A DNA stretch of 64,000 nucleotides from an uncultured Bacteroidales bacterium (GTDB lineage Bacteria; Bacteroidota; Bacteroidia; Bacteroidales; VadinHA17): the NCBI GenBank assembly GCA_963700275.1, contig CAVOWZ010000020.1:63855-127854 (forward strand), read 5' to 3'. Below, one piece after another: positions 4,866 through 18,798 of the stretch. The translations under genes and the position numbers were made by a program. The notes beneath the pieces are model-generated. The model saw only the letters and a list, made by a program, of their open reading frames with translations. It was not told the DNA's origin and ran no database searches. How positions within the stretch are numbered: the stretch's first letter is position 1; each line of letters begins with the position of its first letter.

Positions 4866-6122
4866 ATGCAAATGAAGCTCCTCCTCGCAATGGTCTGCTG
4901 TATTATGATGATCAATCCTCTGTTCGCTCAGAAATATAATATAATTGTTAAGGGCGGCCACGTTATAGATCCTAAAAACAATATTAATGAAGTCATGGAT
5001 ATAGCCGTCAAAGACGGCAGAATAGCCATGGTAGCCAAAAACATTGATCCAAAAGAAGGAATACAGGTAGTGAATGCCGGTGGATTCTATGTAACACCCG
5101 GCCTAATCGACATGCATGTACATGTTTATCAGGGCACTAACCTCGATCAGCAATATATGAACGGCCCGGCTTCGGTAACACCTGACGGTTTTACATTCCG
5201 CGTTGGCGTTACAACAGTTGTTGATGCCGGATGTGCAGGGTGGAGGACCTACCCCGATTTTAAGAAAAATATCATTGACAGATCACAAACACGTGTGCTG
5301 GCCTTCCTCAATATTGTCGGTGACGGAATGAGAGGCGGACCTTTCGAACAGAACCTCAAGGACATGGATCCAAAAGTAACCGGTCAGTATGCAATTAAAA
5401 ACCGGGAGGAGATTGTAGGGATCAAGCTGGCACACTATTCCGGCCATGAATGGGAACCTACTGACCGGACTGTGGAAGCAGGGAAAATCTCAGACATGCC
5501 GGTAATGATCGATTTCGGTGGTGCAGATCCTCCCCTCTCCATCGAAGAACTCTTCATGAAACATCTGCGCCCTGGAGATATTTTCACCCATTGTTTTGCC
5601 CAGCTTGCAAACGGCAGGGAGTATGTTGTTGATCCTGTTGCCGGAAAAGTGAAACCATTCGTATGGGACGCGATCAAAAGAGGTATAATTTTCGATATCG
5701 GTTACGGAGGAATCAGCTTTGCGTACTCCCAGGGTATCCCGGCTGTAAAAAGCGGATTATACCCCCATGTGATAAGTACCGATTTGCACATTGGCAGTAT
5801 GAATGCAGCAATGAAGGATCTTCTTACAACCATGTCAAAATTCCTGGCTATGGGAATGGATCTGCAAAGTGTGATCAAAGCAACAACTTCCGAACCTGCA
5901 CGTGTAATCAAAAAGGAAGAATTAGGCAATCTGTCAGTAGGTTCCGATGCTGACATTACTGTACTGAACCTTAGAAAGGGAAAATTCGGATTATTCGATC
6001 ATACAGGTTATAAACTGGAAGCCGACAAAAAGTTTGAATGTGAAATGACAATCAGAGCCGGCCGGATCGTTTATGACCTCAATGGTATTGCAAATCCCGT
6101 AATAGTATCCGGCAGGAGATAA
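4866..6122 (+). CDS. Exported amidohydrolase/deacetylase-family metallohydrolase (dihydroorotase-like fold), paralog 1
   Basis: Sec-type signal (..MMINPLFAQ). Metal-binding DMHVHV motif, later THCF, FDIGYGG, ISTDLH and GSDADITVLN motifs typical of the amidohydrolase superfamily. Confidence 0.8.
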   Translation: MQMKLLLAMVCCIMMINPLFAQKYNIIVKGGHVIDPKNNINEVMDIAVKDGRIAMVAKNIDPKEGIQVVNAGGFYVTPGLIDMHVHVYQGTNLDQQYMNGPASVTPDGFTFRVGVTTVVDAGCAGWRTYPDFKKNIIDRSQTRVLAFLNIVGDGMRGGPFEQNLKDMDPKVTGQYAIKNREEIVGIKLAHYSGHEWEPTDRTVEAGKISDMPVMIDFGGADPPLSIEELFMKHLRPGDIFTHCFAQLANGREYVVDPVAGKVKPFVWDAIKRGIIFDIGYGGISFAYSQGIPAVKSGLYPHVISTDLHIGSMNAAMKDLLTTMSKFLAMGMDLQSVIKATTSEPARVIKKEELGNLSVGSDADITVLNLRKGKFGLFDHTGYKLEADKKFECEMTIRAGRIVYDLNGIANPVIVSGRR

Positions 6123-6192
6123 TCTTTTTACAATTAATCCAATATAACCATTGTTAACCATGAATAAATCGAGTGTCATAAAAGTATATTTA

Positions 6193-6265
6193 TTACCCCC
6201 TTCCCGGCCTTCCCCCAGGGGGAAGGACACTATTTCCCCCCTGGGGGAAATAAGAAAGGGGGTAA
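6193..6265. repeat. 73-nt G/C-run palindromic element, copy 1
   Basis: ttacccccttcccggccttcccccagggggaaggacactatttcccccctgggggaaataagaaagggggtaa. Its reverse complement matches 14162-14234 at 69/73 positions, and all 4 mismatches fall in the central 11 nt. Confidence 0.85.
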
Positions 6266-6362
6266 AAAATACGAAATAAGAATTGTAGGATAATTTTTTA
6301 TTCCTGAACAAACAAAAATTTAATAAATAACACAATTTATCTCACACTTAAATCAAATTATT

Positions 6363-6827
6363 ATGAAAACTGAAAGAAGATCTGCATTAAAGAAAATGTT
6401 CGCATCTGTTCTGGGTTTGGCCGGAGCAGGAATGGCAGTAAAAGCCGGAACCGGTATTAGGGAAGAAAAAGAGGCTGATAATATAACAAGCTTCCAGAAT
6501 GCCCCCCTGTTCTCGGGCCATACCAAGTTCGGTAATCTGGTATTCGTTGCCGGGAAAGGCGCTCATGTAGAACCATTCACCATCAAGGCTCATACCGAGA
6601 TAGTACTGAAAGAACTTGAGAACGAACTTATTAAAGCCGGTTCCTCTATGGAGAAGGTACTTAAGGTAAACGTTTATCTTAATGATATTGCAGATTACCA
6701 GGGCATGAATGAAGCTTATAAGGGTCGTTTCGGAAGCAAGCCTCCCGTGCGCACAACTGTTGCAGTGGCAAAAGGCGGAGTTCCCGGAAATTCGCTCGTC
6801 GAGATGGATTGCATAGCTTATATTTAA
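6363..6827 (+). CDS. RidA/YjgF/L-PSP-family enamine/imine deaminase with twin-arginine signal
   Basis: N-terminus MKTERRSALKKMFASVLGLAGAGMAV (RR followed by a hydrophobic stretch). Body has RidA-type motifs (VFVAGKGA.., VNVYLNDIADYQGMNEAY.., PVRTTVAV). Confidence 0.85.
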   Translation: MKTERRSALKKMFASVLGLAGAGMAVKAGTGIREEKEADNITSFQNAPLFSGHTKFGNLVFVAGKGAHVEPFTIKAHTEIVLKELENELIKAGSSMEKVLKVNVYLNDIADYQGMNEAYKGRFGSKPPVRTTVAVAKGGVPGNSLVEMDCIAYI

Positions 6828-6840
6828 TAATTTATCAGGT

Positions 6841-8049
6841 ATGAAACGCAGAGAAGCCATAAAAGGTCTTGCCATTCTGCCAGTTGCAGGGGCAGTGCTG
6901 GGCGCATCTTATCCTATAAGTCCGCTCATTGCTGCTCCTCCAAAACGTGATCTGTTCAGTGAGCTTGGATTAAGGAAGTTCATCAATGCAGCGGGCACCT
7001 ATACGTTTATGACGGGATCACTTCTCCCGGAAGAGGTTGTTGAAGCTATGGTGGCTGCTTCAAAAGAATTTGTGCTTCTAGATGATGTTCAGGACAAAGT
7101 TGGTGAGAGAATAGCTGCAATCTGTCATGCAGAAGCCGCTACGGTAACTGCAGGATGCTGGTCGGCAATGGTTCTCGGTACTGCAGGAGTACTGACGGGA
7201 AAAGATCAGAAAAAAATATCACTGCTGCCGGACGTCAGCAGCATGAAATCTGAGGTTATAACCCAGAACAGTCATAACTCGGGCTATGTTCATGCTCTAA
7301 AAAATACAGGTGTAAAAATTGTGGCAGTGGAAACTGCTCAGGAGCTTGAAAATGCAATAAATGAGAAGACAGCCATGCTCTGGTTCCTGAATTATGCTGC
7401 TCCATCAGGGAGTATTCAGCATCAGGAATTTGTAGCTCTGGGCAAAAAACATAATATCCCCGTAATGATCGATATAGCCGCAGATGTACCCCCGGTTGAA
7501 AATCTTTGGAAATACAACGACATGGGATTTGACCTGGTATGCATCTCGGGAGGAAAAGCTTTACGTGGTCCTCAGAGCGCCGGGATCCTGATGGGAAAAA
7601 AGGATCTCATCGAAGCGGCAAGACTGAATGCGCCTCCGCGGGGTGGAAATATCGGCCGTGGTATGAAGGTGAATAAGGAAGAAGTTTTCGGTATGTATGC
7701 AGCTATTGAAAGATATATCAATATCGATCATGAAAAGGAATGGAAGATCTGGGAAGAACGTGTAGCAGTTATTGAAAATGCTGCCAAAAAAGTAAGTGGT
7801 GTAACAACAACTGTCACCGTCCCTCCTATTGCCAATCACACACCCACTCTGACTATTTCGTGGGACATAAACAAGATCAAAGTAACCCGCGAAGAATTCC
7901 AGGACAGGTTACGAAAGGGTATTCCTTCTGTTGAAGTGGTTGCAGGGAAGGATAACAGCATAAACATAACGGTTTTCATGCTGGAACCAAAGCAGGAAAA
8001 GATAGTTGCAGCACGTATCTATGAGGAGCTGAGCAAAGCTTCGTTATGA
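6841..8049 (+). CDS. SelA/DgaE-like PLP-dependent enzyme with twin-arginine signal
   Basis: MKRREAIKGLAILPVAGAVLGA signal. The DLVCISGGKALRGPQSAGILMGKKDLI motif parallels the PLP-lysine region of the L-seryl-tRNA(Sec) selenium transferase family. Confidence 0.75.
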   Translation: MKRREAIKGLAILPVAGAVLGASYPISPLIAAPPKRDLFSELGLRKFINAAGTYTFMTGSLLPEEVVEAMVAASKEFVLLDDVQDKVGERIAAICHAEAATVTAGCWSAMVLGTAGVLTGKDQKKISLLPDVSSMKSEVITQNSHNSGYVHALKNTGVKIVAVETAQELENAINEKTAMLWFLNYAAPSGSIQHQEFVALGKKHNIPVMIDIAADVPPVENLWKYNDMGFDLVCISGGKALRGPQSAGILMGKKDLIEAARLNAPPRGGNIGRGMKVNKEEVFGMYAAIERYINIDHEKEWKIWEERVAVIENAAKKVSGVTTTVTVPPIANHTPTLTISWDINKIKVTREEFQDRLRKGIPSVEVVAGKDNSINITVFMLEPKQEKIVAARIYEELSKASL

Positions 8050-8085
8050 AATATATGACCTGATTGTAGCCTGTTAAGGAAGTTA

Positions 8086-9687
8086 TCAGGTATAGATCAC
8101 CATTTCACGTTCGGCATCCCATCCCATGCCTTTCACGTACATTGTGTACATGCCGGGCTGAGAGAATCCGTCCCAGACGACTTCATGTTTTCCGGGTTCG
8201 AGTCCGTCGGCTTTAAGGTGCCATACGACATCGCCGTAACGGTTCTTAATATCTACATATACATCGCTCTCTTCAGGAACATTCACTTCCATTACGATAC
8301 CGTTCCCGTTATCGGCACCCAGGGCTTTTATTGAGGGCTGGCTGTCGGAAGCGATCTTACCTGTTTTCCATGAAGTGTAATCAAATGGTTCATCAACCAT
8401 GTGATACTGATCTTCGGTCAGTCCGTCATAATTCTTTCTCATATAGAGAGTGAGCAGAGGTGTACGCTTAAAAGTGTCGAGACTGACCTTTTTAGCCTTT
8501 CCGTCCTCCCACAGGTAAACGGGTATGTCAAAAGGATTGAGCACATTGGATACCCCACGTTCGATTCCGATATGGAAGAGTCCGAAATTTCCCGGTTCAT
8601 GGCCTGCCAGCCAGTGGGCAATGATATCCACCCTGAAAGCATCTTTCCCGAAAATTACGTTATTGCTCATAAAATTCATTGGCTTTCCGTTATGAGGACC
8701 ACCTGAAAAACCGTCCCCGTCGCGGCCATAAACACCCTCCACTATATTTATCCCTGTCGGAGCAACACTGTAAGCATCGATCATTCTCTGTATCCAGTGT
8801 TCCATGAAAATACCGCCACCATAAGGCGGTCTCTCCTGGCGACTTTTCCACCTGGGCATCCCCTGATCTTCATGTTTCTTCTGAAGCTCGGTTATTCTGT
8901 CTATATAATCCGGCTGGAAGAACTTATGATAACGCTGGTCATAGGTCTTGAAAATATCATAATGACCGCCGCAGAACTGATGAAATTTTCTGCCTGTCAT
9001 TCCCTGCAGATTCTTAATCGCACCGGTTATCCCCATCTGGTGCGATTTTAGCTTGGCGATATTGATAAGGAAAGTATCTTCAGCAGTCATTGGCGCCATA
9101 AAACCAACTTCCTTGAAAACCACCCCGTCCACCTTCCTGAATAATATATCCCCTTCTGCCAGATCCCAATAGTCTTTTGAGCTGAGTTCCCTCAGGTCAA
9201 AATCATTTCTCTGAGCCATGGCGGTATAACCGGCTGCTTCCCATTGATGGGGACAAGCGCACTCTCTCAGGTAGAATTTTTCAGGACCAAAATTTTTCAC
9301 CGATTTCAGGAATCCTTCAATAAAATTCAGATCTGTGGTTATTCCCAGCTGAGAATCTGGATTTTTCGGATCGATTCTTCCTGTACATGTCCAGTTAGGC
9401 TTGCAGGTTATCCTTGTTGATGAAGGGTAGCCTTTCCCGTCAGTGGTTCTGATGAACATCTCTCCTGCCAGCTTAAATGCGGCATCATGAATTGCCTGCC
9501 TGTCATTGGGAGCAGAGGCTGATGTCAGATTAATAAAAACAGCTTCAGGATGTTCCTTAATAAAAGGATGAAGGTCAAAACCCTGACCGCTCATCCCGTA
9601 AGCACCTGAAACAGGATTGTATGCCGGATTAATAAGTCCCATTACTCCTGCTGCTGAAGAGACTTTAATGAAGTCGCGTCTTTTCAT
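8086..9687 (-). CDS. DUF362-domain protein with twin-arginine signal and C-terminal Ig-like beta-sandwich
   Basis: MKRRDFIKVSSAAGVMGL signal. DUF362-type motifs CKPNW and AKLKSHQMGITGAIKNLQG. The C-terminal ~80 aa (..EPGKHEVVWDGFSQPGMYTMYV..) resembles FlgD-Ig / T9SS-CTD-like sandwiches. Confidence 0.7.
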   Translation of the reverse strand: MKRRDFIKVSSAAGVMGLINPAYNPVSGAYGMSGQGFDLHPFIKEHPEAVFINLTSASAPNDRQAIHDAAFKLAGEMFIRTTDGKGYPSSTRITCKPNWTCTGRIDPKNPDSQLGITTDLNFIEGFLKSVKNFGPEKFYLRECACPHQWEAAGYTAMAQRNDFDLRELSSKDYWDLAEGDILFRKVDGVVFKEVGFMAPMTAEDTFLINIAKLKSHQMGITGAIKNLQGMTGRKFHQFCGGHYDIFKTYDQRYHKFFQPDYIDRITELQKKHEDQGMPRWKSRQERPPYGGGIFMEHWIQRMIDAYSVAPTGINIVEGVYGRDGDGFSGGPHNGKPMNFMSNNVIFGKDAFRVDIIAHWLAGHEPGNFGLFHIGIERGVSNVLNPFDIPVYLWEDGKAKKVSLDTFKRTPLLTLYMRKNYDGLTEDQYHMVDEPFDYTSWKTGKIASDSQPSIKALGADNGNGIVMEVNVPEESDVYVDIKNRYGDVVWHLKADGLEPGKHEVVWDGFSQPGMYTMYVKGMGWDAEREMVIYT

Positions 9688-9780: not shown

Positions 9781-11388
9781 TCAGGTTGCAAGCGGTTGGC
9801 CTTTGGGAAATCTGATCTGTCTTCTGGCTCCCCTGTAATTATTACGGCTTGCTTTAAAGCTTGCATTAATATATTCACCCATATAAATTTGTCCGGTAAT
9901 TGTATCTCCCGAGAGAGTTCCCGAGAATATGAACGGTACATTATCAGCTATCATGCGTTCAGAGCTGCTAAGTTTAACAAGGTCTCCCTCGATGGTACCA
10001 ACCATTTCCCGGAATGAAAAATCTCCCTTATGGGAACCCTGTATCCAGTTACCATCCTGTTCAAGAATAAAAGTGTGCTGACTCCTGCTGCTGTAGAACT
10101 CAATATCGACAGTCCATCTCCCGGTAATATCCCCGGCAGGAGGAGCCATTTCTTTTGGTTTCGGATATTGCTTTGACAGCAGTTCAAATATCCGGTCAGC
10201 AGCGATCTTATCATTTCCGGGCTGCATCTGGCCGGATGTCACACGTAACGAAGTTGTCTTTTCCTGTTCATTATTTCCACTGTGAACCGCAATTCTTGGT
10301 TTGGTTTGTGCAAGCATCTCCGCGATCTCAGGCCCTGTAATATTAAATTTTGCTGGATCCCATGAAATGAGTATCCAGGGGCTCCTGTTATTAAGGTCGG
10401 TTGGTTCCCTTAATGTAACCTTTACTCCGTTGATCGCCGAAACACGTTTGGTAATTGTATCAAGATATCCCATCCATGTTCTGTATTTCTCCTCATGATC
10501 ACGCTTGACCCAGGCCTCGACAGCTGCCAGCATTCCAAGCATTTCCTCCTTACCGACTTTATTGTCCCGTCCTGTCCCATGATGTGGTGAACTGGCCTGC
10601 CATGCCGACATCAGGATATCTTTCCTTCCCAGGAGTAATCCTGCGCACTGAGGGCCGCAAATAGCTTTCCCTCCGCTGTAGGCCACAACGGTGGCTCCTG
10701 CCTGAAGATGAACATTCGGTATCGTAAGGTCTTCAGCTGCAGCATCAACAAGAAATGGTATGTTTAACGGCTTTGCAAGAGCGGCAATCTTATCAATGGC
10801 AAATTTATTTCCGGGAAGTGTATCATTTCCTGTCATTACATATATCATTGCTGTCCGCCCGTTCAGCGCCTTGCCCAGCTCTTCAAGAGTATCAACGGTA
10901 ATGATTGTAACACCGATGTTCCTTATTGCGTGATCATATGCATTCCTTGAACTTCTGGGTATAACCACCTCGGTCTTGTCAAAGCCTGAAAGATCAGGAA
11001 TGCGTACCAGCTTTTCGGGGTTGCCACCTGCAACACAGGCCGATGTAACATGCTTCATACCGGCGGCACAGCCTGCTGATATCATCCCCCACTCAGCTTT
11101 TGTAAGCTCGGCGAGTCTCCTCCCGATCCCAAGCGCCAGCTCATCATACTGAACAAAGAAACCAGAAGCAGCATGCATGGCTTCAACAACTTCCGGCCTT
11201 TCTATCGATCCACCGATAATTGTAAATGTTCCCACACAGTTTATAACAGGTTCCACTCCTATCGACTGGTAAATATTCTGCCCCGGCTCAATCTGCCCGT
11301 TGACGGGAGATAATACTGCCTCAAGGGGCCGGAAGCCTCCGGCAAACGGTAGAATTGTCAAACTCTTAATGATGTCTCTTCGTTCCAT
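9781..11388 (-). CDS. SelA/DgaE-like PLP-dependent enzyme with twin-arginine-type signal and an extra ~130-aa C-terminal domain
   Basis: MERRDIIKSLTILPFAGG N-terminus. VVAYSGGKAICGPQCAGLLLGRKDIL PLP-lysine motif. Paralog of 6841..8049 with a beta-rich C-terminal extension. Confidence 0.75.
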   Translation of the reverse strand: MERRDIIKSLTILPFAGGFRPLEAVLSPVNGQIEPGQNIYQSIGVEPVINCVGTFTIIGGSIERPEVVEAMHAASGFFVQYDELALGIGRRLAELTKAEWGMISAGCAAGMKHVTSACVAGGNPEKLVRIPDLSGFDKTEVVIPRSSRNAYDHAIRNIGVTIITVDTLEELGKALNGRTAMIYVMTGNDTLPGNKFAIDKIAALAKPLNIPFLVDAAAEDLTIPNVHLQAGATVVAYSGGKAICGPQCAGLLLGRKDILMSAWQASSPHHGTGRDNKVGKEEMLGMLAAVEAWVKRDHEEKYRTWMGYLDTITKRVSAINGVKVTLREPTDLNNRSPWILISWDPAKFNITGPEIAEMLAQTKPRIAVHSGNNEQEKTTSLRVTSGQMQPGNDKIAADRIFELLSKQYPKPKEMAPPAGDITGRWTVDIEFYSSRSQHTFILEQDGNWIQGSHKGDFSFREMVGTIEGDLVKLSSSERMIADNVPFIFSGTLSGDTITGQIYMGEYINASFKASRNNYRGARRQIRFPKGQPLAT

Positions 11389-11432: not shown

Positions 11433-12701
11433 TTAAAATTTTATCCCCTGGTTATCAATCCGTTTACCTGCTGAAATGCCATTCTGATCATAAACAATTC
11501 TCCCACCCCGGATGGTCAGCTCCGTCTCTATCCTCCTGTCTCCGTTCAGTCTGGTGCCACCAGTATCAATAAATCCAAAGGTACCTTTTCTTATTCTGAA
11601 AACAGCAATATCTGCATCAGATCCTTCGCTTAACTGTCCCAGATCCTCACGTTTGACAGATAATGCCGAATTCCATGTAGCCCGGAAAATGATATCCTCA
11701 AAGGTCATTCCCATATTCAGGTATTTCGACATGATATCGAGCATATTTTTCATACCGGAATTCATACTGGAACGGTGAAGGTCTGATCCGAAGGAATCCG
11801 GAAGAAGCCCCTGCCTGAGCGCTGGTATTGCCACATCGAAATGAAACATTCCCCCGCCGTGTCCCACATCAAACCTTATCCCTTTTTTCTTTGCTTCTGC
11901 AACGCAGGGCCTAATCTTTCCTTTCTCGTCGAGAATACAGGTTCTGTCGGAAGCCACGCAAAAAGAATGTGTGTAAATATCTCCCGGGTTCATTCGTTTA
12001 AGAATTTCTTCAAGGGGAAGCAAAGGCAGGTGGCATTCCACAAGGAGTGGAACTCCGGCAATCTGAGCCGCTTCCGCAGCCCTGTCAAACGGTATCCATT
12101 CACTTCCCCTGTAATGGCCAATCTTAATACCGACAATGACTTCCGGATACTGATCTGCAACAATTGAGGTCATCCGGGCATCCATATCATTAATATCCTC
12201 CTCTGTGGGGAATCCTGTCATACCGGAACCGGCAATATTCAGAAATGCAAGGACCCTTGTCAGTGAACGGTCAATAACCTGCTTCTTAAATACGGGGAAA
12301 TTCCTCCAGCCCGAAGTCCCGGCATCAACAACTGTTGTAATCCCTGCTTTAAAGGTGAAGTCATCGGGGGACACGCTCGAAAATCCATCTGCAAAACCCT
12401 GATTTGATCCCACAAATACATGGGTATGAATATCGATGAGCCCCGGTGTTACATACAGATCTTTTACATCAATAACTTTTTTTGCATCTGAGGGGCTGAT
12501 ATCCGGAGCTATACGAATTATTTTACCTCCGGCAACTGCCACATCCATCTGTGAATCAATATTGTTTTTTGGATCAATAACGTGACCGCCTTTAAGAAGA
12601 ATATCTATCTGCTGCGAACTGACTGGTCCTGTAAAAGAAACAATGAAGTAAATGACCACTAAAATGATCCTGAAAATTCCTGAAATATCCTTTTTCATCA
12701 T
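11433..12701 (-). CDS. Exported amidohydrolase/deacetylase-family metallohydrolase, paralog 2
   Basis: The start is moved to the MMKKD.. ATG at 12701, which removes the overlap with the upstream stop at 12716. TM/signal segment, then IDILLKGGHVIDP.., DIHTHV, FDVGHGG, GSDADIAVF. Confidence 0.8.
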   Translation of the reverse strand: MMKKDISGIFRIILVVIYFIVSFTGPVSSQQIDILLKGGHVIDPKNNIDSQMDVAVAGGKIIRIAPDISPSDAKKVIDVKDLYVTPGLIDIHTHVFVGSNQGFADGFSSVSPDDFTFKAGITTVVDAGTSGWRNFPVFKKQVIDRSLTRVLAFLNIAGSGMTGFPTEEDINDMDARMTSIVADQYPEVIVGIKIGHYRGSEWIPFDRAAEAAQIAGVPLLVECHLPLLPLEEILKRMNPGDIYTHSFCVASDRTCILDEKGKIRPCVAEAKKKGIRFDVGHGGGMFHFDVAIPALRQGLLPDSFGSDLHRSSMNSGMKNMLDIMSKYLNMGMTFEDIIFRATWNSALSVKREDLGQLSEGSDADIAVFRIRKGTFGFIDTGGTRLNGDRRIETELTIRGGRIVYDQNGISAGKRIDNQGIKF

Positions 12702-12715
12702 CTTTACAGCAGTTG

Positions 12716-13993
12716 TTAAGGAACGGCATCCCATAAAAGTGATCCAATACCATTAAGGTCCCATACTATTCTCCCTGAGCGTATTGTCAGTTCAGCTTCA
12801 AGCTTCTGACTCCCCTTCATTTTTGTTCCGCGGACATCGGTAAAACCGAACTCACCCTTTCGCAGGCTGAAAACGGCAATATCAGCCTCTGAACCTTCTC
12901 TCAGGTTAGCAAGGTCGGTCCTCTTAATGGCTTTTGCCGGATTCAGGGTGGCACGCCTGATGACATCCTGCAGGGGCAGTCCCATATTCAGGAATTTCGA
13001 CAAGAGGTTAGCCATATCTTTCATTCCGCTGTTCATGCTTCCGGTATGAAGATCGGAGCTTATAACATCTGCAATAAAACCCTGCTGAACCGATGGGATA
13101 GCCTGTTTCCAGTGAAATGCACCGCCTCCGTGGCCTACATCAAAGATTATTCCTCTTTTCTGAGCTTCGAAAATAAAAGGTTTTACCCTTCCCTTCTCAT
13201 CAACAGGCACCTCACGGTCCTTCGGAGCATTGGCATAGGTGTGGGTCCAGATATCACCGGGCCTCAGATGTTTCATAAAGAGTTCCTCAATCGGCAATGG
13301 CGGCTGATGTTCTCCGAGATCGACCATTACGGGAACATTTGCAAGCCTTCCTGCCTCCACGGCAAGGTCTACCTGTGTAAAATCGGGTCCCCAGTAATGT
13401 GCCGACTTAACACCAACAATAATGTCGGGAAATAATCTGTTGATCATGTAAGCAGCCATTACAGGATTCATATCATTTACATCCTGTTCTTCAAATCTTC
13501 CATACATACCCGACCCGACAATATTAAGGAAAGCAAGTATTCTTGTACGTGATCTGTCTATTGTCTGTTCCTTGAATTTCCGGAAATTCCGCCATCCGGC
13601 CGATCCTGCATCAACAACCGTGGTCACCCCTGCTCTGAAAGTAAAACCATCCGGGGGCAGCGCATCCCAGCCATCAGCAATATATGATCCCGGATCGGTT
13701 CCATGGAATGCATGAACATGCATATCAATCAGTCCCGGAGTCACATACATTCCTCTTACATCAATTACTTTAGCTGCATTGTCTGCAGGTATATCAGGAG
13801 CAACACGGAAGATCTTATCCTTAACTATGGCCACGTCCATCGGAGCGTCAATATTGCCTGCAGGATCTATAACGTGCCCTCCCTTCAGAAGGATATCAAT
13901 AGCCTGTCCAAAAGATGGCGAAGTTCCCTGATAACACCAAAACACTGGCAGCACCAGAGCTATCCTTAATAGTGATGAATAGCATTTCTTCAT
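12716..13993 (-). CDS. Exported amidohydrolase/deacetylase-family metallohydrolase, paralog 3
   Basis: The start is moved to MKKCYSSLL.. (ATG at 13993). Signal peptide, then IDILLKGGHVIDP.., DMHVHA, FDVGHGG, GSEADIAVF. It is in tandem with paralog 2. Confidence 0.8.
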   Translation of the reverse strand: MKKCYSSLLRIALVLPVFWCYQGTSPSFGQAIDILLKGGHVIDPAGNIDAPMDVAIVKDKIFRVAPDIPADNAAKVIDVRGMYVTPGLIDMHVHAFHGTDPGSYIADGWDALPPDGFTFRAGVTTVVDAGSAGWRNFRKFKEQTIDRSRTRILAFLNIVGSGMYGRFEEQDVNDMNPVMAAYMINRLFPDIIVGVKSAHYWGPDFTQVDLAVEAGRLANVPVMVDLGEHQPPLPIEELFMKHLRPGDIWTHTYANAPKDREVPVDEKGRVKPFIFEAQKRGIIFDVGHGGGAFHWKQAIPSVQQGFIADVISSDLHTGSMNSGMKDMANLLSKFLNMGLPLQDVIRRATLNPAKAIKRTDLANLREGSEADIAVFSLRKGEFGFTDVRGTKMKGSQKLEAELTIRSGRIVWDLNGIGSLLWDAVP

Positions 13994-14161: not shown

Positions 14162-14234
14162 TTACCCCCTTTCTTATTTCCCCCAGGGGGGAAAAGTTCT
14201 CCTTCCCCCTGGGGGAAGGCCGGGAAGGGGGTAA
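14162..14234. repeat. 73-nt G/C-run palindromic element, copy 2 (inverted relative to copy 1)
   Basis: ttaccccctttcttatttcccccaggggggaaaagttctccttccccctgggggaaggccgggaagggggtaa. It equals the reverse complement of 6193-6265 except for 4 central positions. Confidence 0.85.
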
Positions 14235-14303
14235 TTAATATTCTTTTGAAACATTTGAATAAAATAATTTAATATCATAGAATCCATAAATAATACAACT
14301 AAT

Positions 14304-15179
14304 ATGAAGAAATTAACAAGACGTCAGTTTATAGGCAGAAGCGCCCTCGGGATAGGCTCAGCTTTTGTTGCTTCGCATATTCCAATGGACCTTAAAGCCG
14401 GTTCATTGGCAAGACCTGTCAGATATCCTCTTGGCTTCCAGGTATGGACAATAAAGGACCAGCTTATCAAAGATTTTGCTGGAACACTTAAAATGATGGC
14501 CGGCATGGGGTATAAAAGTGTTGAAATGTGTTCTCCTCCCGGATATGAGAGTTCAGGATTTGGTCCGTTAATGAAAATGTCAGGAAAAGAAATGCGCAAA
14601 ATAATGAATGACCTCGGTTTGCAGTTTGAGAGCACGCATTATGGCATGAATGAACTCAGGAATAACCTTGATGAGCGTATAAAGTTCGCTTCAGAATCGG
14701 GACAGAAGCAAATGATCCTTTCCAGCTTCGGATTGCCAAAGGATGCCACAATGAGCGACTGGATGAAAGCTGCTGATGAACTGAATAAAATAGGTGAAAG
14801 AACAAAGAAAGCAGGTATCCAGACCGGATTCCATAATCATCACACAGAATTTACGAAGATCGATAATGTGCTGATATATGATGCACTGCTCAGGCAGTTC
14901 GATCCCGAACTTGTGAAAATGCAGTTCCAGGTTGCAGTGATCAGTATCGGCATTAAAGCTGCAGATTACTTTAATAAATATCCCGGAAGATTCATTTCGG
15001 CTCACCTCGCTGATTATTCGGTTCTCGAGGAGAAAAGTGTTCCCCTCGGAAAGGGTATCGTAGACTGGAAAGAATTCTTTGATTCAACAAACAAGGGTGG
15101 AGTAAAGAATGTCTTTATTGAGATGGATCCGGCAACCTTCAAGGAGAGCGCTCAGTTTATTCAGAATCTGCAGTATTGA
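14304..15179 (+). CDS. Xylose-isomerase-like TIM-barrel protein (sugar phosphate isomerase/epimerase family) with twin-arginine signal
   Basis: MKKLTRRQFIGRSALGIGSAFVAS signal. TIM-barrel family pattern (GYKSVEM.., GFHNHHTEF..). Confidence 0.8.
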   Translation: MKKLTRRQFIGRSALGIGSAFVASHIPMDLKAGSLARPVRYPLGFQVWTIKDQLIKDFAGTLKMMAGMGYKSVEMCSPPGYESSGFGPLMKMSGKEMRKIMNDLGLQFESTHYGMNELRNNLDERIKFASESGQKQMILSSFGLPKDATMSDWMKAADELNKIGERTKKAGIQTGFHNHHTEFTKIDNVLIYDALLRQFDPELVKMQFQVAVISIGIKAADYFNKYPGRFISAHLADYSVLEEKSVPLGKGIVDWKEFFDSTNKGGVKNVFIEMDPATFKESAQFIQNLQY

Positions 15180-15180
15180 T

Positions 15181-15316: not shown

Positions 15317-15402
15317 CGCAGAGATTAGTGCTCAGTCTTGAAATAGAAGCATGGAACCTTAGACTATAAACATCAAGTTAAATTAATACAACTTAATTCT
15401 CT

Positions 15403-16539
15403 ATGAAGAAATTATTAACCTTCGCAGCATTATGTCTGTTGGTTTCATGTAACAGCATTGAAAAAACAAAAATACCCTGTTATGCCTGGCTTAGCGGTCC
15501 GGGAAATGCCACTGATGCTGAACTGGAAGCAAATTTCAACGATTTAAAGGCCAAAGGAATAGACGGATTGATGTATTCAGGGGGACAGGATCCGGAAACC
15601 TATAAAAGGGTAGGAAAGCTTGTTAAAAAAGCAGGAATGGAATTTCATACCTGGATACCGACACTTGTACAGAACCCCCGGCCTGAGCTTAAACCGGAAT
15701 TGTATGCAGTGAACGGACTCGGGGAATCAGCTTACGACAAGCCTGCTTACGTCGATCATTATAAGTTCCTGTGCCCAAACCGTGAAGAAGTCTATCAGTT
15801 CCTCGAAAATATGTATGGAAAAATTGCAGATATTCCGGAAGTTGATGGCATTCATCTCGATTTTATAAGATTCCCTGATGTAATCCTCGCTCCTGGTCTC
15901 TGGGAAAAATACGGGCTTGTAATGGACAGGGAATTTCCTCAGTTTGACTACTGTTATTGCGATAAATGTTTGACAGATTTTAAGGCAAAAACAGGAATTG
16001 ATATTAAGTCGGTGCCTGATCCCTCCGCCGTACCGGAATGGAAACAGTTCCGCTATGACCTTATAACTGATATGGTTAACCGGCTTACTGTTATGGTTCA
16101 TTCGAAAAATAAACAGATGAATGCTGCTGTTTTTCCGGGACCGAATTCAATTGCGAAAAAAATAGTCAGACAGGAGTGGGATAAATGGGATATTGATGCC
16201 TTCTTCCCTATGAATTACAATGATTTTTACCTGGAAGGACCTGAATGGATAGGAGAAGTATCAAAAGAAGCGGTAATGACAATCAATAATTCCAAACCTG
16301 TTTACAGCGGATTATTCATCTGTCCGGAACCGGAGAAGAAAGCTTCAGAAAAGGATCCTGAAAATCATGGTCTTGTACCCGGAGAGCTCGAAGCAGCAAT
16401 AAGGGAATCAATGGAGAACGGATCTGCAGGTATCTGCTTATTTACACCAGACAGGATGACTTCAGAGGGCTGGAAAATATTTGAGAAGGCAATCCGGACA
16501 AAATATGTAAACAAAATCTTCCCGTCCGAAGAGTATTGA
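15403..16539 (+). CDS. Lipoprotein, glycoside-hydrolase-like GHL10 (YngK-like) TIM-barrel family
   Basis: Lipobox ..LLVSCNS. The GIHLDFIRFPD motif is typical of the GHL10 family. Assignment comes from motif recall only. Confidence 0.5.
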   Translation: MKKLLTFAALCLLVSCNSIEKTKIPCYAWLSGPGNATDAELEANFNDLKAKGIDGLMYSGGQDPETYKRVGKLVKKAGMEFHTWIPTLVQNPRPELKPELYAVNGLGESAYDKPAYVDHYKFLCPNREEVYQFLENMYGKIADIPEVDGIHLDFIRFPDVILAPGLWEKYGLVMDREFPQFDYCYCDKCLTDFKAKTGIDIKSVPDPSAVPEWKQFRYDLITDMVNRLTVMVHSKNKQMNAAVFPGPNSIAKKIVRQEWDKWDIDAFFPMNYNDFYLEGPEWIGEVSKEAVMTINNSKPVYSGLFICPEPEKKASEKDPENHGLVPGELEAAIRESMENGSAGICLFTPDRMTSEGWKIFEKAIRTKYVNKIFPSEEY

Positions 16540-16619
16540 GTTAAACAGGAAATAACCGGATGATGAAATACCTTTCAGTCAGGAGGTAGCTCACTTTCAA
16601 TAAATTTTGTTGGGTACTA

Positions 16620-16976
16620 ATGATAAAATACTACAGATCTGCTTCAGGACAGGTAATAGCGGAATTAACAGATGAAACAGAAAAAATCGTCGAAGTCGGG
16701 GATATCCTTGATATGATCGCTGAAATTGGCCAGAATGACTGCGGTGCCCTGATAATACGCGATTCTGCTTTAAACAAAGATTTTTTTGATCTTAAAACCG
16801 GATTTGCCGGTGAGATCCTTCAGAAATTCTCAAATTACAGGGTCAGACTGGCAATTACAGGAGATTTTTCGAAATATCCGGGTAAAAGCCTCAATGATTT
16901 TATCCGGGAATGTAACCGTGGGAATCAGATATTCTTTGTCCCGTCAGCCGGGGAAGCCCTAATCAGGTTAGGATAA
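16620..16976 (+). CDS. DUF4180-domain protein
   Basis: The motif series ..GEILQKFSNYRVRLAITGDFSKY..SLNDFIRECNRGNQIFFV matches my recollection of the DUF4180 family. Confidence 0.55.
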   Translation: MIKYYRSASGQVIAELTDETEKIVEVGDILDMIAEIGQNDCGALIIRDSALNKDFFDLKTGFAGEILQKFSNYRVRLAITGDFSKYPGKSLNDFIRECNRGNQIFFVPSAGEALIRLG

Positions 16977-16994
16977 ACATAAATTGAAGGAGTA

Positions 16995-17732
16995 ATGGAA
17001 AAGGGGGGAAATCAGAATACAGGTATATTGAAGAAAATAAGGACGTTCATTGAGATAGTGATCTCGATGGCCGGATTTGTTCCACACAGTGCTACCTTTT
17101 TCAGGATAATCATTATGGCAGCTTCCCTTGGGTTTTCATTTTACCTTACAATTTATAATCCTCTCAATCACGGGATAGCAATAATATATTTTATTCTTGC
17201 GGAAATTCTCTATCTCGGTTTTATATCATCTGTGCTTCCGGAGAACGGATTGCGCCATTGGTTCATGCGGAAATGGGGTGATGAAAAGAAAGGGTACCGT
17301 GCTTTTGAAACCATTCTTGGATTTCTGTTTTTTCATAATGGTGCAAGCATTGGTTATATAGCATCTTCTTCACCGGGTACATTATTTAACATTGATGACA
17401 GAGGTGTAATTTTCCTGTTCCTGCCGATTCTCATTGCCTTCGGGTTCATTATAAAAATATGGGCAGCAAAGGTGGTTTCTGTGGATATTTATTACTGGAA
17501 GGATATGTTCCTCGGGAGGAAGATCTGCGATTTCGCTGTAACCGGTCCTTATAAATACTTCAGCAACCCGATGTATGGTATCGGCCAGCTCCCGGCATAT
17601 GCAAGCGCTTTATGGTACGGATCTAAAATCGGGCTGATTGCAGCTGTTGTGAATCAGCTTCTTATTTTTACATTTTATTTCCTCGCCGAAAAGAAATTCA
17701 TTAAAAGGGTCTACCTGAGTGAAGGGAAATAA
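16995..17732 (+). CDS. Polytopic membrane protein, ICMT/PEMT-like methyltransferase family
   Basis: Multiple TM helices. The C-terminal GPYKYFSNPMY motif resembles the isoprenylcysteine carboxyl / phospholipid methyltransferase signature. Confidence 0.45.
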   Translation: MEKGGNQNTGILKKIRTFIEIVISMAGFVPHSATFFRIIIMAASLGFSFYLTIYNPLNHGIAIIYFILAEILYLGFISSVLPENGLRHWFMRKWGDEKKGYRAFETILGFLFFHNGASIGYIASSSPGTLFNIDDRGVIFLFLPILIAFGFIIKIWAAKVVSVDIYYWKDMFLGRKICDFAVTGPYKYFSNPMYGIGQLPAYASALWYGSKIGLIAAVVNQLLIFTFYFLAEKKFIKRVYLSEGK

Positions 17733-17856
17733 CTTCAACAACCACACATAAAAACTACGTATTAAAATACGTTTCTTAATACATATTATAATACGTAGAT
17801 AATATGCCTGTTACCACATCCGTTCTTAACGCCTTATTACCTTAACGCCGCAATAC

Positions 17857-17888
17857 GTAATGCCGTAATGCCGTAATGCCGTAATACC
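17857..17888. repeat. 8-nt tandem array (GTAATGCC x3 + GTAATACC)
   Basis: gtaatgcc gtaatgcc gtaatgcc gtaatacc, read directly. It is preceded by degenerate tacgta-containing copies from about 17750 onward. Confidence 0.85.
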
Positions 17889-17906
17889 TAAGACACCTTC
17901 CTTCCT

Positions 17907-17946
17907 CTGTGCCACTGCGCCCCTGCGCCGCTGTGCCTCTGCGCCC
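17907..17946. repeat. 8-nt tandem array (CTGYGCCN x5)
   Basis: ctgtgcca ctgcgccc ctgcgccg ctgtgcct ctgcgccc. It abuts the stop codon (17947-17949) of the minus-strand TIM-barrel gene. Confidence 0.85.
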
Positions 17947-18798
17947 TTATTTACACGCCATCACCCCTTTGAAGTATCCGATCGACTCGGCTATTCCTGC
18001 AGCAGGGTCTTTCATATCTTTTTCAAATTCAAGGCTGCATTTGCCGGTATATCTGATCTTACGAAGGGTAGCCACAAATCCCGGGATATCAATTACTCCC
18101 CTTCCCATTTCCAGGGTTTTGCCCTCTTTTGACGGTTTATCAACATCCTTTATATGAATGTCATAAATACGGTTTTTATATTTTAAAATGTCAACAGAGG
18201 GATTCTGGCCGTCGCGGGTTGTATGACCGATATCGATACATATTCCAATACGCGGGTCGAGGTCCTTTATATGATTCCAGATATCAGTTGCATTCGGATA
18301 AAGTGGATTATCCGGCCCATGATTATGAATAGCCAGTTTGAAGTCATACTCTTTTATTTTCTGCTCTACATACGGAAGCAGTTCGGTATTCGGAGCCCCA
18401 ACGATCATTTTAACTCCGGCCATCTTTGCATATTCGAAAGCCTGGTCAACTGATTCTTTTGTTCTCATATAAACAACTCCTACCGTGTAAACATTGATAC
18501 CTGCACTTTTTAATTTGACGATAGTCTCTTCAATTTTCTCACGGGTGCTGTTCAGAGGAAGATGCATTTCCTTAAGTGAGAGATTGGTCACTCCTACCCT
18601 TTTCATTATCTCAATCATTTTATCAAGACTAAGCTGGGCAAAAGTGAAACCTGCCATTCCTATTTCAAAGGAATCCTTCGATGCAAATTTCTTCGGCGGC
18701 ACGGGGCCTGAAGCTGATGCATAAACCGGAGAAATACCTGCTGCCAGGAGACCTGCTCCCGACAGTTTTAAAAACTGACGACGTGATTTCATAGTCAC
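17947..18798 (-). CDS. Xylose-isomerase-like TIM-barrel protein with canonical twin-arginine signal
   Basis: MTMKSRRQFLKLSGAGLLAAGISPVYASA (SRRQFLK). AIHNHGPD.. and CIDIGH.. are TIM-barrel family motifs. Confidence 0.8.
   Translation of the reverse strand: MTMKSRRQFLKLSGAGLLAAGISPVYASASGPVPPKKFASKDSFEIGMAGFTFAQLSLDKMIEIMKRVGVTNLSLKEMHLPLNSTREKIEETIVKLKSAGINVYTVGVVYMRTKESVDQAFEYAKMAGVKMIVGAPNTELLPYVEQKIKEYDFKLAIHNHGPDNPLYPNATDIWNHIKDLDPRIGICIDIGHTTRDGQNPSVDILKYKNRIYDIHIKDVDKPSKEGKTLEMGRGVIDIPGFVATLRKIRYTGKCSLEFEKDMKDPAAGIAESIGYFKGVMACK

What the first reader, a model, noticed from the sequence alone, without database searches (positions are those of the whole stretch)
4866..18798. Block of exported PLP, RidA, amidohydrolase, DUF362 and TIM-barrel enzymes: candidate periplasmic deacylation/deamination pathway with no known substrate
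Ten enzyme genes within about 14 kb carry export signals.
- Six have twin-arginine motifs that I can read directly: RRSALK, RREAIK, RRDFIK, RRDIIK, TRRQFI and SRRQFLK.
- Three amidohydrolases have Sec-type signals.
- One GHL10-like protein has a lipobox.

The families fit one chemical sequence:
- Amidohydrolase/deacetylase-family metallohydrolases (three paralogs) would remove an acyl group or open an amide.
- SelA-fold PLP enzymes (two paralogs, same fold family as D-glucosaminate-6-phosphate ammonia-lyase DgaE) would eliminate ammonia through an enamine/imine intermediate.
- RidA would hydrolyse that imine.
- Xylose-isomerase-like TIM barrels would process the resulting keto product.

Tat export would be the expected route for cofactor-loaded PLP enzymes, and PLP chemistry outside the cytoplasm is rarely described. 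I see no transporter, regulator or kinase in the block. This is compatible with a periplasmic pathway acting on non-phosphorylated substrates, unlike the cytoplasmic Dga system. I cannot name a characterised system with this composition.
Basis: partly seen in the sequence, partly recalled or inferred. Interest (0 to 1): 0.75.

Follow-up and report, generated by a model that had tools for sequence, protein, structure and literature searches.

The report
Exported deacylase, PLP-lyase and RidA module
Seven adjacent genes in a Bacteroidales genome encode a widely conserved but uncharacterised enzyme set (three amidohydrolases, two vitamin-B6 lyases, a RidA and a DUF362 protein) that all carry export signals and probably strip the acyl and amino groups from oxidised amino sugars outside the cytoplasm.

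Summary
All ten proteins have the stated N-terminal motifs and nine of ten family calls are confirmed; GHL10 is below threshold. Tat-like N-termini occur in 6 of 12 genes at 6363-18798 and in none of about 36 elsewhere.

Only seven genes form a conserved unit: AH1-RidA-SelA1, converging on DUF362-SelA2-AH2-AH3 (4866-13993). The two TIM barrels and the GHL10-like lipoprotein are not conserved with it.

In 83 loci from related genomes (58 of them at least 14 kb):
- A COG3964 amidohydrolase lies near the exported SelA/DgaE-like PLP enzyme in 55 of 58.
- RidA is present in 45 of 58.
- The Tat motif is on 109 of 114 SelA-like proteins.
- The same module occurs in Acidobacteriota (Granulicella).
- Recurrent partners are PQQ sugar dehydrogenase-cytochrome c, lactonases, SusC/SusD, RraA-like aldolase, SBF/MFS transporters and DgoK/KDPG aldolase.

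Best reading (0.5): a periplasmic pathway from N-acyl-2-amino-2-deoxy-aldonate through the amino-aldonate to a 2-keto-3-deoxy-aldonate plus NH3. It parallels the cytoplasmic Ong and Dga pathways.

The PLP enzymes keep the PLP lysine and carboxylate site but lack DgaE's phosphate-binding arginines and His-His pair. DUF362 remains unexplained.

Verdict: new variant of a known kind.

The parts
4866..6122 (+). AH1: COG3964/PRK09237 amidohydrolase/deacetylase-family metallohydrolase with a Sec signal (MQMKLLLAMVCCIMMINPLFA|Q). Proposed N-acyl deacylase.
   Evidence: NCBIfam NF006689 scores 445 bits against a cutoff of 371. HxH (H84, H86), K187, H242 and D306 are conserved in at least 95% of 110 homologues. 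PDB relatives are 8je0, 2ogj and 2ics.
6169..6265 (.). Copy 1 of a 97-nt GC-rich palindromic repeat (REP/MITE-like), in the AH1-RidA gap.
   Evidence: It forms an inverted pair with 14162-14258, 89% complementary. The predicted fold is -45.3 kcal/mol, z = -3.2. The core pattern occurs in 27 metagenome contigs.
6363..6827 (+). RidA-family imine/enamine deaminase with a Tat signal (RRSALK).
   Evidence: PF01042 scores 67.7 bits against a cutoff of 27.3. R130 is conserved; that it is the catalytic Arg is inferred. 49 of 58 homologues in related loci carry a Tat motif.
6841..8049 (+). SelA1: fold-type I PLP enzyme of the SelA/DgaE-like group with a Tat signal (RREAIK). Proposed amino-aldonate ammonia-lyase.
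   Evidence: Matches DgaE structure 7lc0 at E = 1.3e-32. PLP Lys K239 is invariant. The mature domain begins at about residue 37, where cytoplasmic homologues start. DgaE Arg301/332/346 are replaced by T/V/F.
8086..9687 (-). DUF362-domain protein with a Tat signal (RRDFIK) and a C-terminal Ig-like domain. Function unknown.
   Evidence: PF04015 scores 66.3 bits. The catalytic-domain AF2 model has pLDDT 88 and no PDB neighbour (best E = 0.35). The C-terminal domain matches Ig-like/FlgD folds. It is conserved next to SelA2 in seven loci (L001, L002, L004, L005, L006, L009, L038).
9781..11388 (-). SelA2: second SelA/DgaE-like PLP enzyme with a Tat signal (RRDIIK), plus a C-terminal extension of about 130 aa of unknown fold.
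   Evidence: TIGR01437 scores 147 bits, below its cutoff. The PLP Lys is kept, and DgaE Arg301/332/346 are replaced by W/H/G. The long form is also present in Granulicella (537 aa).
11433..12701 (-). AH2: COG3964 amidohydrolase. The Sec signal is counted from Met12 (MMKKDISGIFRIILVVIYFIVSFTGPVSS|Q).
   Evidence: NF006689 scores 418 bits. N-terminus shown.
12716..13993 (-). AH3: COG3964 amidohydrolase. The Sec signal is counted from Met29 (MKKCYSSLLRIALVLPVFWCYQGTSPSFG|Q).
   Evidence: NF006689 scores 434 bits. N-terminus shown.
14162..14258 (.). Copy 2 of the palindromic repeat, inverted, in the AH3/TIM1 divergent gap.
14304..15179 (+). TIM1: xylose-isomerase-like TIM barrel with a Tat signal. 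A neighbour, not part of the conserved module.
   Evidence: PF01261 scores 48 bits. Absent from all related loci. Best PDB relatives are 8tcd, 8tcs and 8tct at about 1e-22.
15403..16539 (+). Lipoprotein of uncertain family ('GHL10-like'). A neighbour, not part of the module.
   Evidence: The lipobox LLVSC is present. GHL10 and GHL13 match only at E = 0.03. No PDB relative by sequence. Absent from related loci.
17947..18798 (-). TIM2: xylose-isomerase-like TIM barrel with a Tat signal (SRRQFLK). A neighbour, retained only in the closest relatives, next to the DUF4180 and PEMT genes.
   Evidence: PF01261 scores 79.5 bits, and TIGR01409 (Tat signal) scores 21.4 against a cutoff of 16.7. Matches 3lmz at 5.6e-91. 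Found only in L001 and L002.

Best explanation
**What it is.** The seven genes at 4866-13993 form two convergent operons: AH1-RidA-SelA1, and DUF362-SelA2-AH2-AH3. Together they are a duplicated copy of a widespread periplasmic catabolic module.

**Proposed steps**
1. A Sec-exported COG3964 metallo-amidohydrolase removes the N-acyl group from an N-acyl-2-amino-2-deoxy-aldonate. Examples are N-acetyl-glucosaminate and N-acetyl-galactosaminate, the acids formed when amino sugars are oxidised at C1.
2. A SelA/DgaE-like fold-type I PLP enzyme, folded with PLP in the cytoplasm and exported by Tat, eliminates the 3-hydroxyl and releases an enamine/imine.
3. A Tat-exported RidA hydrolyses that intermediate to a 2-keto-3-deoxy-aldonate plus ammonium.
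4. The keto-acid is then imported or cleaved.

**Shown**
- The enzyme families and their catalytic residues.
- The signal motifs and their conservation.
- The gene linkage across two phyla.

**Inferred**
- Export itself.
- The lyase reaction.
- The substrate class.

The paralogues (three AH, two PLP enzymes) probably cover different acyl groups or sugar configurations. The role of DUF362 is unknown. The TIM barrels and the GHL10-like lipoprotein are neighbours, not members.
For: **Families and catalytic residues**
- The PLP lysine is invariant in 42 of 42 exported and 48 of 48 cytoplasmic representatives. The Arg226 position that binds the carboxylate is kept as R or K.
- The AH metal ligands and RidA R130, which I infer is the catalytic Arg, are conserved.

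**Export**
- The Tat motif is on 109 of 114 SelA-like and 49 of 58 RidA proteins. Sec signals are on 99 of 115 AH proteins. The cytoplasmic/inner-membrane controls scored 0 of 30 (ECF sigma) and 0 of 36 (FecR anti-sigma).
- Cytoplasmic homologues begin exactly where the mature domain begins.

**Linkage**
- In loci of at least 14 kb, AH is present in 55 of 58 and RidA in 45 of 58.
- Granulicella arctica has TBDT-RraA-SelA-RidA-SelA(long)-AH, all with signals.
- P0262 is an AH::SelA-like fusion.

**Substrate and product clues from partner genes**
- PQQ GSDH with cytochrome c, or a lactonase, is present in 41 of 58 loci, and SusC/SusD in 29 of 58. CBM9-like proteins, RraA-like aldolase and SBF transporter also recur.
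- DGOK, KDPG aldolase, an MFS transporter, a Tat-signal GlcNAc 2-epimerase, heparinase-like proteins and sulfatases also appear.

**Non-phosphorylated substrate**
- DgaE's phosphate-binding Arg301/332/346 are absent.
- The His162-His163 pair, which the DgaE paper links to avoiding release of the enamine, is absent. This gives a rationale for an obligatory RidA.

**Precedent for the chemistry**
- OngB deacetylase, OngC PLP deaminase and OngD RidA convert GlcNAc1A to KDG, NH3 and acetate, and all three are essential for growth on it (PMC9537276).
Against: - The window itself has no dehydrogenase, lactonase, aldolase, transporter or SusC/SusD next to the block. The substrate is inferred from other genomes.
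- No signal-peptide predictor was run, and there are no localisation data.
- The heuristic gives false positives: it called G6PD as Sec.
- Six loci carry S15 or M19 peptidases instead of carbohydrate genes.
- From memory, not verified here, characterised COG3964 enzymes act on acyl-mandelate or N-acyl-D-amino-acid-like compounds rather than sugar acids.
- The PLP enzymes score below the DgaE family cutoffs and lack its His-His pair, so a reaction other than beta-elimination is possible.
- The related loci are the 80 best hits of one scan and share ancestry, so the counts are not independent.
- DUF362 is unexplained.
Confidence: 0.5

Rival explanations
1. The module has the same three-step periplasmic chemistry but a different substrate. 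It would act on N-acyl-D-amino acids or D-amino-acid peptides with a beta-hydroxyl, such as D-Ser or D-Thr derivatives from cell walls or lipopeptides. The products would be pyruvate or 2-oxobutyrate plus NH3.
For: - S15 X-Pro dipeptidyl peptidase or a Tat-signal M19 dipeptidase sits in the operon in 6 of 83 loci.
- The Ong enzymes themselves descend from D-amino-acid enzymes.
- The window has no carbohydrate partner adjacent to the block.
- From memory, COG3964 members prefer acyl-(R)-mandelate or D-configured N-acyl compounds.
Against: - Partners related to carbohydrates and sugar acids are far commoner. GSDH or a lactonase is present in 41 of 58 loci and SusC/SusD in 29 of 58. CBM9-like, DGOK/KDPG aldolase, RraA-like aldolase and GlcNAc 2-epimerase genes also recur.
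- The nearest characterised relative of the PLP enzyme is a sugar-acid lyase.
Confidence: 0.2
2. All ten exported enzymes in 4866-18798 form one pathway. In that reading the TIM barrels isomerise or process the keto product and the GHL10-like protein supplies the sugar.
For: - The genes are physically close, and every Tat signal of the window lies in this block.
- The TIM-barrel family includes enzymes that act on keto sugars.
Against: - TIM1 and GHL10-like are missing from the 82%-identical syntenic relative and from all 80 other Bacteroidota loci. TIM2 is kept only in L001 and L002, next to unrelated DUF4180 and PEMT genes.
- The GHL10 family call is below threshold.
- Cytoplasmic or membrane genes (DUF4180, PEMT) interrupt the block.
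Confidence: 0.1
3. The SelA-like proteins are not ammonia-lyases. They could be aminotransferases, racemases/epimerases or desulfurase-like enzymes acting on periplasmic amines, and the module would have a role other than catabolism, such as detoxification or envelope modification.
For: - Scores are below the DgaE cutoffs, at 171 against 385 and 138 against 600 bits.
- DgaE's conserved His162-His163 is absent.
- There are weak hits to Cys/Met-metabolism and class-V aminotransferase models.
Against: - Tight linkage to RidA, which acts on enamine/imine products of PLP eliminations, holds in 45 of 58 loci.
- The module is also linked to keto-acid aldolases, kinases and transporters.
- DgaE is the closest characterised relative, with an E-value of 1.6e-58 for the profile.
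Confidence: 0.12

Closest known systems
Ong pathway of Pseudoalteromonas prydzensis (OngB GlcNAc1A deacetylase, OngC PLP deaminase, OngD RidA; PMC9537276, PMC12017989)
   Same: - It has the same three-part logic: an amidohydrolase-superfamily de-N-acylase, a PLP-dependent deaminating lyase and a RidA.
- It converts an N-acetyl-amino-aldonate to a 2-keto-3-deoxy-aldonate, NH3 and acetate.
- It is fed through TonB-dependent outer-membrane receptors.
   Different: - The Ong enzymes are cytoplasmic, and GlcNAc1A is imported first by an SSS transporter.
- OngB is D-aminoacylase-like rather than COG3964.
- OngC is described as a D-amino-acid deaminase rather than SelA/DgaE-like.
- Here all three enzymes carry export signals, two of them Tat.
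- Homology to OngB and OngC was not tested because their sequences were not at hand.
[quoted passage not shown]
   Same: - DgaE is the closest characterised homologue of SelA1 and SelA2, with the same fold, PLP lysine and carboxylate-binding position.
- Relatives of the module add an aldolase step, either RraA-like or KDPG aldolase.
   Different: - DgaE is cytoplasmic, linked to a PTS, and acts on the 6-phosphate.
- The window proteins lack the phosphate-binding Arg301/332/346 and the strictly conserved His162-His163.
- They score below the equivalog cutoff and are Tat-exported.
EF_0837-type operons (TIGR03583 amidohydrolase with a TIGR01437 SelA-related protein)
   Same: They show the same pairing of a COG3964-type amidohydrolase with a SelA-related PLP enzyme. 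The AHs hit TIGR03583 at 218-226 bits and the 2ics structure.
   Different: - Those proteins are cytoplasmic. My recollection that they are PTS-associated was not verified here.
- The window AHs fall below the TIGR03583 cutoff (432) and belong to PRK09237 instead.
Periplasmic 3-keto-glycoside pathway of Bacteroides (AL1/BT1 'sugar phosphate isomerase' TIM barrels; bioRxiv 10.1101/2024.03.25.586180)
   Same: It involves exported xylose-isomerase-like TIM barrels in Bacteroidota, one partner of which has a twin-arginine signal. TIM1's best PDB relatives are 'sugar phosphate isomerase' entries 8tcd, 8tcs and 8tct.
   Different: - No Gfo/Idh/MocA oxidoreductase or DUF1080 partner is adjacent here.
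- This comparison concerns only TIM1 and TIM2, which are not part of the conserved module.
- I could not verify that 8tcd-8tct are the AL1/BT1 structures.

Membership tests
[quoted passage not shown] | Fold-type I SelA-like PLP domain with the Schiff-base lysine | tested here: met
   K239 in SGGKAL aligns with the DgaE lysine. It is invariant in 35 of 35 and in 90 of 90 exported plus cytoplasmic representatives.
[quoted passage not shown] | Score above the curated family cutoffs | tested here: not met
   SelA1 scores 137.6 against 600 (NF047797) and 170.7 against 385.3 (TIGR01437). SelA2 scores 133.9 and 147.3.
[quoted passage not shown] | Strictly conserved His162-His163 and the phosphate-binding Arg301/Arg332/Arg346 (PMC9529869) | tested here: not met
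   At those five positions SelA1 has A, A, T, V, F and SelA2 has N, D, W, H, G. Arg301 is kept in only 5 of 42 exported representatives.
SelA (selenocysteine synthase, TIGR00474) | Score above the cutoff, and an N-terminal tRNA-binding domain | tested here: not met
   Scores are 45.5 and 18.3 bits against a cutoff of 267.9. The alignment to SelA structures starts at SelA residue 67-78, and the N-terminus here is a signal peptide.
COG3964 / PRK09237 amidohydrolase/deacetylase-family metallohydrolase | Score above the equivalog cutoff, and amidohydrolase metal ligands | tested here: met
   Scores are 445, 418 and 434 bits against a cutoff of 371. HxH, Lys187, His242 and Asp306 are conserved in at least 95% of 110 sequences.
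RidA (Rid family imine/enamine deaminase) | YjgF/L-PSP fold with the catalytic arginine | tested here: met
   PF01042 scores 67.7 against 27.3. TIGR00004 scores 61.9, below its subfamily cutoff of 106. R130 is conserved in at least 95% of 58 homologues. Its equivalence to the catalytic Arg of S. enterica RidA is my inference from the motif.
Tat substrates | Twin-arginine motif, hydrophobic region, and actual Tat-dependent export of a folded, cofactor-loaded protein | tested here: inconclusive
   The motif and hydrophobic region are present in six proteins and conserved across homologues and phyla. Only TIM2 exceeds the TIGR01409 cutoff. No predictor or experiment was available, and no tat genes lie in the window.
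Ong-type N-acetyl-amino-aldonate catabolism | Deacetylase, PLP deaminase and RidA acting on GlcNAc1A to give KDG | not testable with these tools
   The composition is analogous. Enzyme activity and substrate cannot be tested in silico, and sequence homology to OngB and OngC was not examined.
Polysaccharide utilisation locus (SusC/SusD-linked) | An adjacent SusC/SusD pair | tested here: not met
   There is none next to the block in the window; the nearest SusC is at 43197-46334, in a separate rhamnosidase/heparinase locus. The feature is met in 29 of 58 related loci.
DUF362 (PF04015; Pfam clan shared with LarA/DUF2088) | Pfam domain above the cutoff; structural likeness to LarA | tested here: inconclusive
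   The domain scores 66.3 against 24. The clan link comes from PMC11770544. The confident AF2 model (pLDDT 88) retrieved no LarA or any other PDB neighbour (best E = 0.35).
GHL10 (PF02638) | Score above the Pfam cutoff | tested here: not met
   The score is 14.0 bits against 27.9, E = 0.027, and GHL13 is equally weak. There is no PDB relative.

The most novel reading that the evidence does not exclude
Bacteroidota, Acidobacteriota and probably other phyla would carry out a complete amino-sugar catabolic branch outside the cytoplasm. In this reading:
- PQQ dehydrogenase-cytochrome c enzymes oxidise imported amino sugars, feeding electrons to the respiratory chain.
- Lactonases open the lactones.
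- A Tat-exported PLP lyase module (AH, SelA-like, RidA) releases acetate and ammonium in the periplasm.
- Only a keto-deoxy acid crosses the inner membrane.

This would make Tat-exported PLP lyases and exported RidA a major, overlooked class. It would also tie DUF362 to the module as a new cofactor enzyme in anaerobic Bacteroidales.
Probability: 0.35. Interest if true: 0.75.

Novelty: new variant of a known kind. Interest (0 to 1): 0.62.

Why it matters
If the reading is right:
- PLP-dependent elimination chemistry and RidA 'damage control', both regarded as cytoplasmic, would operate routinely in the periplasm of abundant soil, sediment and gut-related bacteria.
- A very large protein family would gain a function. 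It has more than 4,400 representative clusters at 50% identity and is now mislabelled 'selenocysteine synthase' or 'L-seryl-tRNA selenium transferase'.
- There would be a route by which oxidised amino sugars, for example from LPMO-cleaved chitin or periplasmic sugar oxidation, are mineralised with ammonium released outside the cell. That bears on carbon and nitrogen cycling and on cross-feeding.
- The hypothesis can be tested in cultured carriers such as Dyadobacter, Spirosoma, Larkinella, Fodinibius and Granulicella.

Tried and rejected
- **DUF362 structure.** The full-length AF2 model was poor (pLDDT 64), and Foldseek matched only the C-terminal Ig-like domain. The trimmed catalytic domain gave a confident model (pLDDT 88) but no significant PDB neighbour. 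Sequence search of the PDB was also empty. Its function stays unknown.
- **Promoters and terminators.** The sigma-70 and terminator scans and the Bacteroidetes -7 motif TAnnTTTG were at or below chance, so operon boundaries rest on spacing only.
- **Rfam.** No RNA family was found in the window.
- **Literature.** I found no paper describing exported SelA-like/RidA/amidohydrolase clusters. Searches for COG3964/Atu3266, 8JE0, PvdN and 8TCD-8TCT returned nothing usable. Statements about those rest on memory and are marked as such.
- **Genome scan.** The 35-sequence cross-phylum alignment was too divergent for the scan, so a closer 12-sequence alignment was used. All 80 returned loci are therefore Bacteroidota.
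- **GHL10 assignment.** Rejected as unsupported.
- **SelA-RidA fusion.** P0518 keeps an internal Tat signal and is probably a read-through, so it is not counted as a fusion.
- **True SelA.** Rejected: the proteins score below the cutoff and lack the tRNA-binding domain.

Full report
**1. What is in the sequence**

The region holds twelve genes.
- AH1 4866-6122 (+)
- RidA 6363-6827 (+)
- SelA1 6841-8049 (+)
- DUF362 8086-9687 (-)
- SelA2 9781-11388 (-)
- AH2 11433-12701 (-)
- AH3 12716-13993 (-)
- TIM1 14304-15179 (+)
- a lipoprotein 15403-16539 (+)
- DUF4180 16620-16976 (+)
- a PEMT-like membrane protein 16995-17732 (+)
- TIM2 17947-18798 (-)

- The three amidohydrolases exceed the PRK09237/COG3964 cutoff, at 418-445 bits against 371.
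- RidA, DUF362 and both AP_endonuc_2 barrels pass their Pfam cutoffs.
- The two PLP proteins hit the DgaE/SelA-related models at 134-171 bits, well below those models' cutoffs.
- 'GHL10' is unsupported, at 14 bits against 27.9.

All six twin-arginine strings, the Sec-type N-termini and the lipobox are present.
- AH2 and AH3 need internal starts (Met12/13 and Met29) to show their signals. That choice also removes the AH2/AH3 overlap.
- In all three AHs the signal ends just before a Gln that is conserved in at least 95% of 110 homologues. This fits the pattern I recall for Bacteroidetes signal-peptidase-I substrates, which I did not verify here.
- A single crude heuristic run over every long ORF finds Tat-like N-termini in 6 of the 12 genes between 6363 and 18798, and in none of about 36 elsewhere in the window.

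**2. Which genes belong together**

An 82%-identical relative (L001/L002) keeps AH1-RidA-SelA1 converging on DUF362-SelA2-AH2-AH3, with the same left flank. It has a different gene where TIM1 and the lipoprotein sit.

A scan of one genome per species returned 80 further Bacteroidota loci. I called ORFs in them, matched them to the window proteins and clustered the remainder.
- Counts in the 58 loci of at least 14 kb: a COG3964 amidohydrolase is present in 55 (usually directly downstream of the SelA-like gene), RidA or a second Rid type in 45, and DUF362 in only 4 (7 of all 83 loci, all close Bacteroidales relatives).
- TIM1 and the lipoprotein never recur.
- TIM2 recurs only in L001 and L002.

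The conserved unit is therefore the seven genes at 4866-13993, and its core is SelA-like plus AH plus RidA.

The linkage extends beyond Bacteroidota.
- Granulicella arctica (Acidobacteriota) has TonB-dependent receptor, RraA-like, SelA-like, RidA, long SelA-like and AH, in that order.
- A metagenomic contig (L085) whose SelA-like protein groups with Acidobacteriota homologues has SGL lactonase, SelA-like and RidA.
- A 762-aa protein (P0262) fuses the amidohydrolase to the SelA-like domain.

**3. Export**

- Among 150 representatives at 50% clustering, homologues fall into two groups. One starts directly at the mature domain (M..IYE.LGV..INA). The other carries an N-terminal extension of 30-60 residues with a twin-arginine motif.
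- R3 and R4 are invariant in a 35-sequence cross-clade alignment.
- In the related loci, 109 of 114 SelA-like and 49 of 58 RidA proteins score as Tat, and 99 of 115 AH proteins as Sec. The cytoplasmic/inner-membrane controls scored 0 of 30 (ECF sigma) and 0 of 36 (FecR anti-sigma).
- The Granulicella proteins carry SRRKFL, SRRGLL and SRREVL.
- Export is thus a conserved property of the module, but it remains an inference. No dedicated predictor or experiment was available, and the heuristic has false positives.

**4. Chemistry**

*PLP enzymes*
- SelA1 and SelA2 are closest to DgaE: 7lc0 at E = 1.3e-32 for the single sequence and 1.6e-58 for the profile.
- The PLP lysine is invariant, and the residue at DgaE Arg226, which binds the carboxylate, is kept as K or R.
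- DgaE's phosphate-binding Arg301/332/346 and its strictly conserved His162-His163 (PMC9529869) are replaced. SelA1 has T/V/F and A/A at those positions, and SelA2 has W/H/G and N/D.
- This argues for an alpha-amino acid substrate without a phosphate. Since His163 is proposed to prevent release of the reactive enamine, it also gives a reason why RidA is so tightly linked.

*Other core enzymes*
- RidA keeps the conserved Arg (R130), and the AHs keep their metal ligands.
- The proteins are not SelA. They score far below its cutoff and lack its N-terminal domain.

**5. Substrate clues**

Recurrent partners in the related loci were identified by Pfam and counted.
- PQQ-type glucose/sorbosone dehydrogenase fused to or paired with cytochrome c (47 of 83 loci)
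- SGL or seven-bladed lactonases (21 loci)
- CBM9-like proteins (26 loci)
- SusC/SusD (37 loci), usually with ECF sigma/anti-sigma
- RraA-like aldolase with a signal peptide (8 loci)
- SBF transporter (9 loci)
- 2-keto-3-deoxy-galactonokinase, KDPG aldolase, an MFS transporter and an MR_MLE dehydratase (10 loci)
- Also sulfatases, a Tat-signal GlcNAc 2-epimerase, a heparinase II/III-like protein and a BNR protein

Upstream genes that make and open sugar lactones, and downstream genes that handle 2-keto-3-deoxy acids, bracket a deacylase and a deaminating lyase. The simplest fit is N-acyl-2-amino-2-deoxy-aldonate, then the amino-aldonate, then a 2-keto-3-deoxy-aldonate plus NH3.

The Ong pathway shows that exactly this chemistry exists and needs a RidA. 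OngB, OngC and OngD are all essential for growth on GlcNAc1A. There it runs in the cytoplasm, with a D-aminoacylase-like deacetylase and a D-amino-acid-deaminase-like PLP enzyme (PMC12017989).

A minority of loci carry S15 or M19 peptidases (6 of 83), which keeps a D-amino-acid or peptide substrate alive as a rival. The window copy has none of the partner genes adjacent, so its own substrate source is unknown. As this is a Bacteroidales genome without the cytochrome-linked dehydrogenase, it may take up pre-oxidised amino sugars.

**6. Unresolved parts**

- **DUF362.** It is a genuine DUF362 with a Tat signal and many invariant His and Cys residues. Pfam places it in the LarA clan. A confident model of the catalytic domain found no PDB neighbour.
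- **SelA2.** It carries a conserved C-terminal extension of about 130 aa with no family match.
- **TIM1.** Its best PDB relatives are 'sugar phosphate isomerase' structures. Exported members of this family in Bacteroides are 3-keto-glycoside lyases, which suggests a separate function.

**7. Verdict**

- The chemistry is known from the Ong and Dga systems. The periplasmic, Tat-dependent implementation by a distinct SelA/DgaE-like clade paired with COG3964 amidohydrolases appears uncharacterised in the literature I could search.
- I classify it as a new variant of a known kind, with interest of about 0.6.

Noticed in passing
window 6169-6265 and 14162-14258: A 97-nt GC-rich palindromic element occurs as an inverted pair, 89% complementary and 7896 nt apart. 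Its core is TTCCCCCAGGGGGAA...TTCCCCCTGGGGGAA inside a TACCCCC/GGGGGTA stem. The pair brackets exactly RidA to AH3, six of the seven core genes. It is absent from all 85 related loci, including the syntenic relative. Its core pattern occurs in 27 metagenome contigs, so it looks like a dispersed REP/MITE-like repeat. Whether it mediates inversion, mobility or transcript insulation is unknown.
   Followed up: partly
window 41392-41931 and 41928-43178 (-): A SusD-like gene is split into two overlapping ORFs, SusD-like_3 N-terminal and SusD_RagB C-terminal. This is a probable frameshift or sequencing error. It lies next to SusC (43197-46334) in a locus with GH106 and GH78 rhamnosidases and two heparinase II/III-like proteins.
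   Followed up: no
window 58524-59315 and 59275-60684 (-): A dipeptidyl-peptidase IV gene appears split. The DPPIV_N beta-propeller and the Peptidase_S9 catalytic domain fall in two overlapping ORFs.
   Followed up: no
window 9781-10200 (-), SelA2 residues about 400-535: The long SelA-like paralogue has a C-terminal extension of about 130 aa with no Pfam match. The same long form (537-547 aa) recurs in Acidobacteriota and in other representatives.
   Followed up: partly
P0262, P0518 (database proteins): P0262 is a signal-less fusion of the COG3964 amidohydrolase and the SelA-like domain. P0518 joins RidA and the SelA-like domain but keeps an internal Tat signal, so it is probably a read-through of adjacent genes. 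Its cluster includes RidA proteins named from 'Candidatus Aquilonibacter'.
   Followed up: partly
window 24081-24953 (-): The 6-phosphogluconolactonase/NagB-family ORF begins with an (LN)n repeat (NLNLNLNLNLNLNLNLNLN) if read from the first ATG. The true start is probably downstream. It overlaps the G6PD gene end at 24871-24953.
   Followed up: no
database annotations of homologues: Members of the exported clade are widely annotated as 'selenocysteine synthase' or 'L-seryl-tRNA(Ser) selenium transferase'. That label is not supported by domain content or scores.
   Followed up: yes
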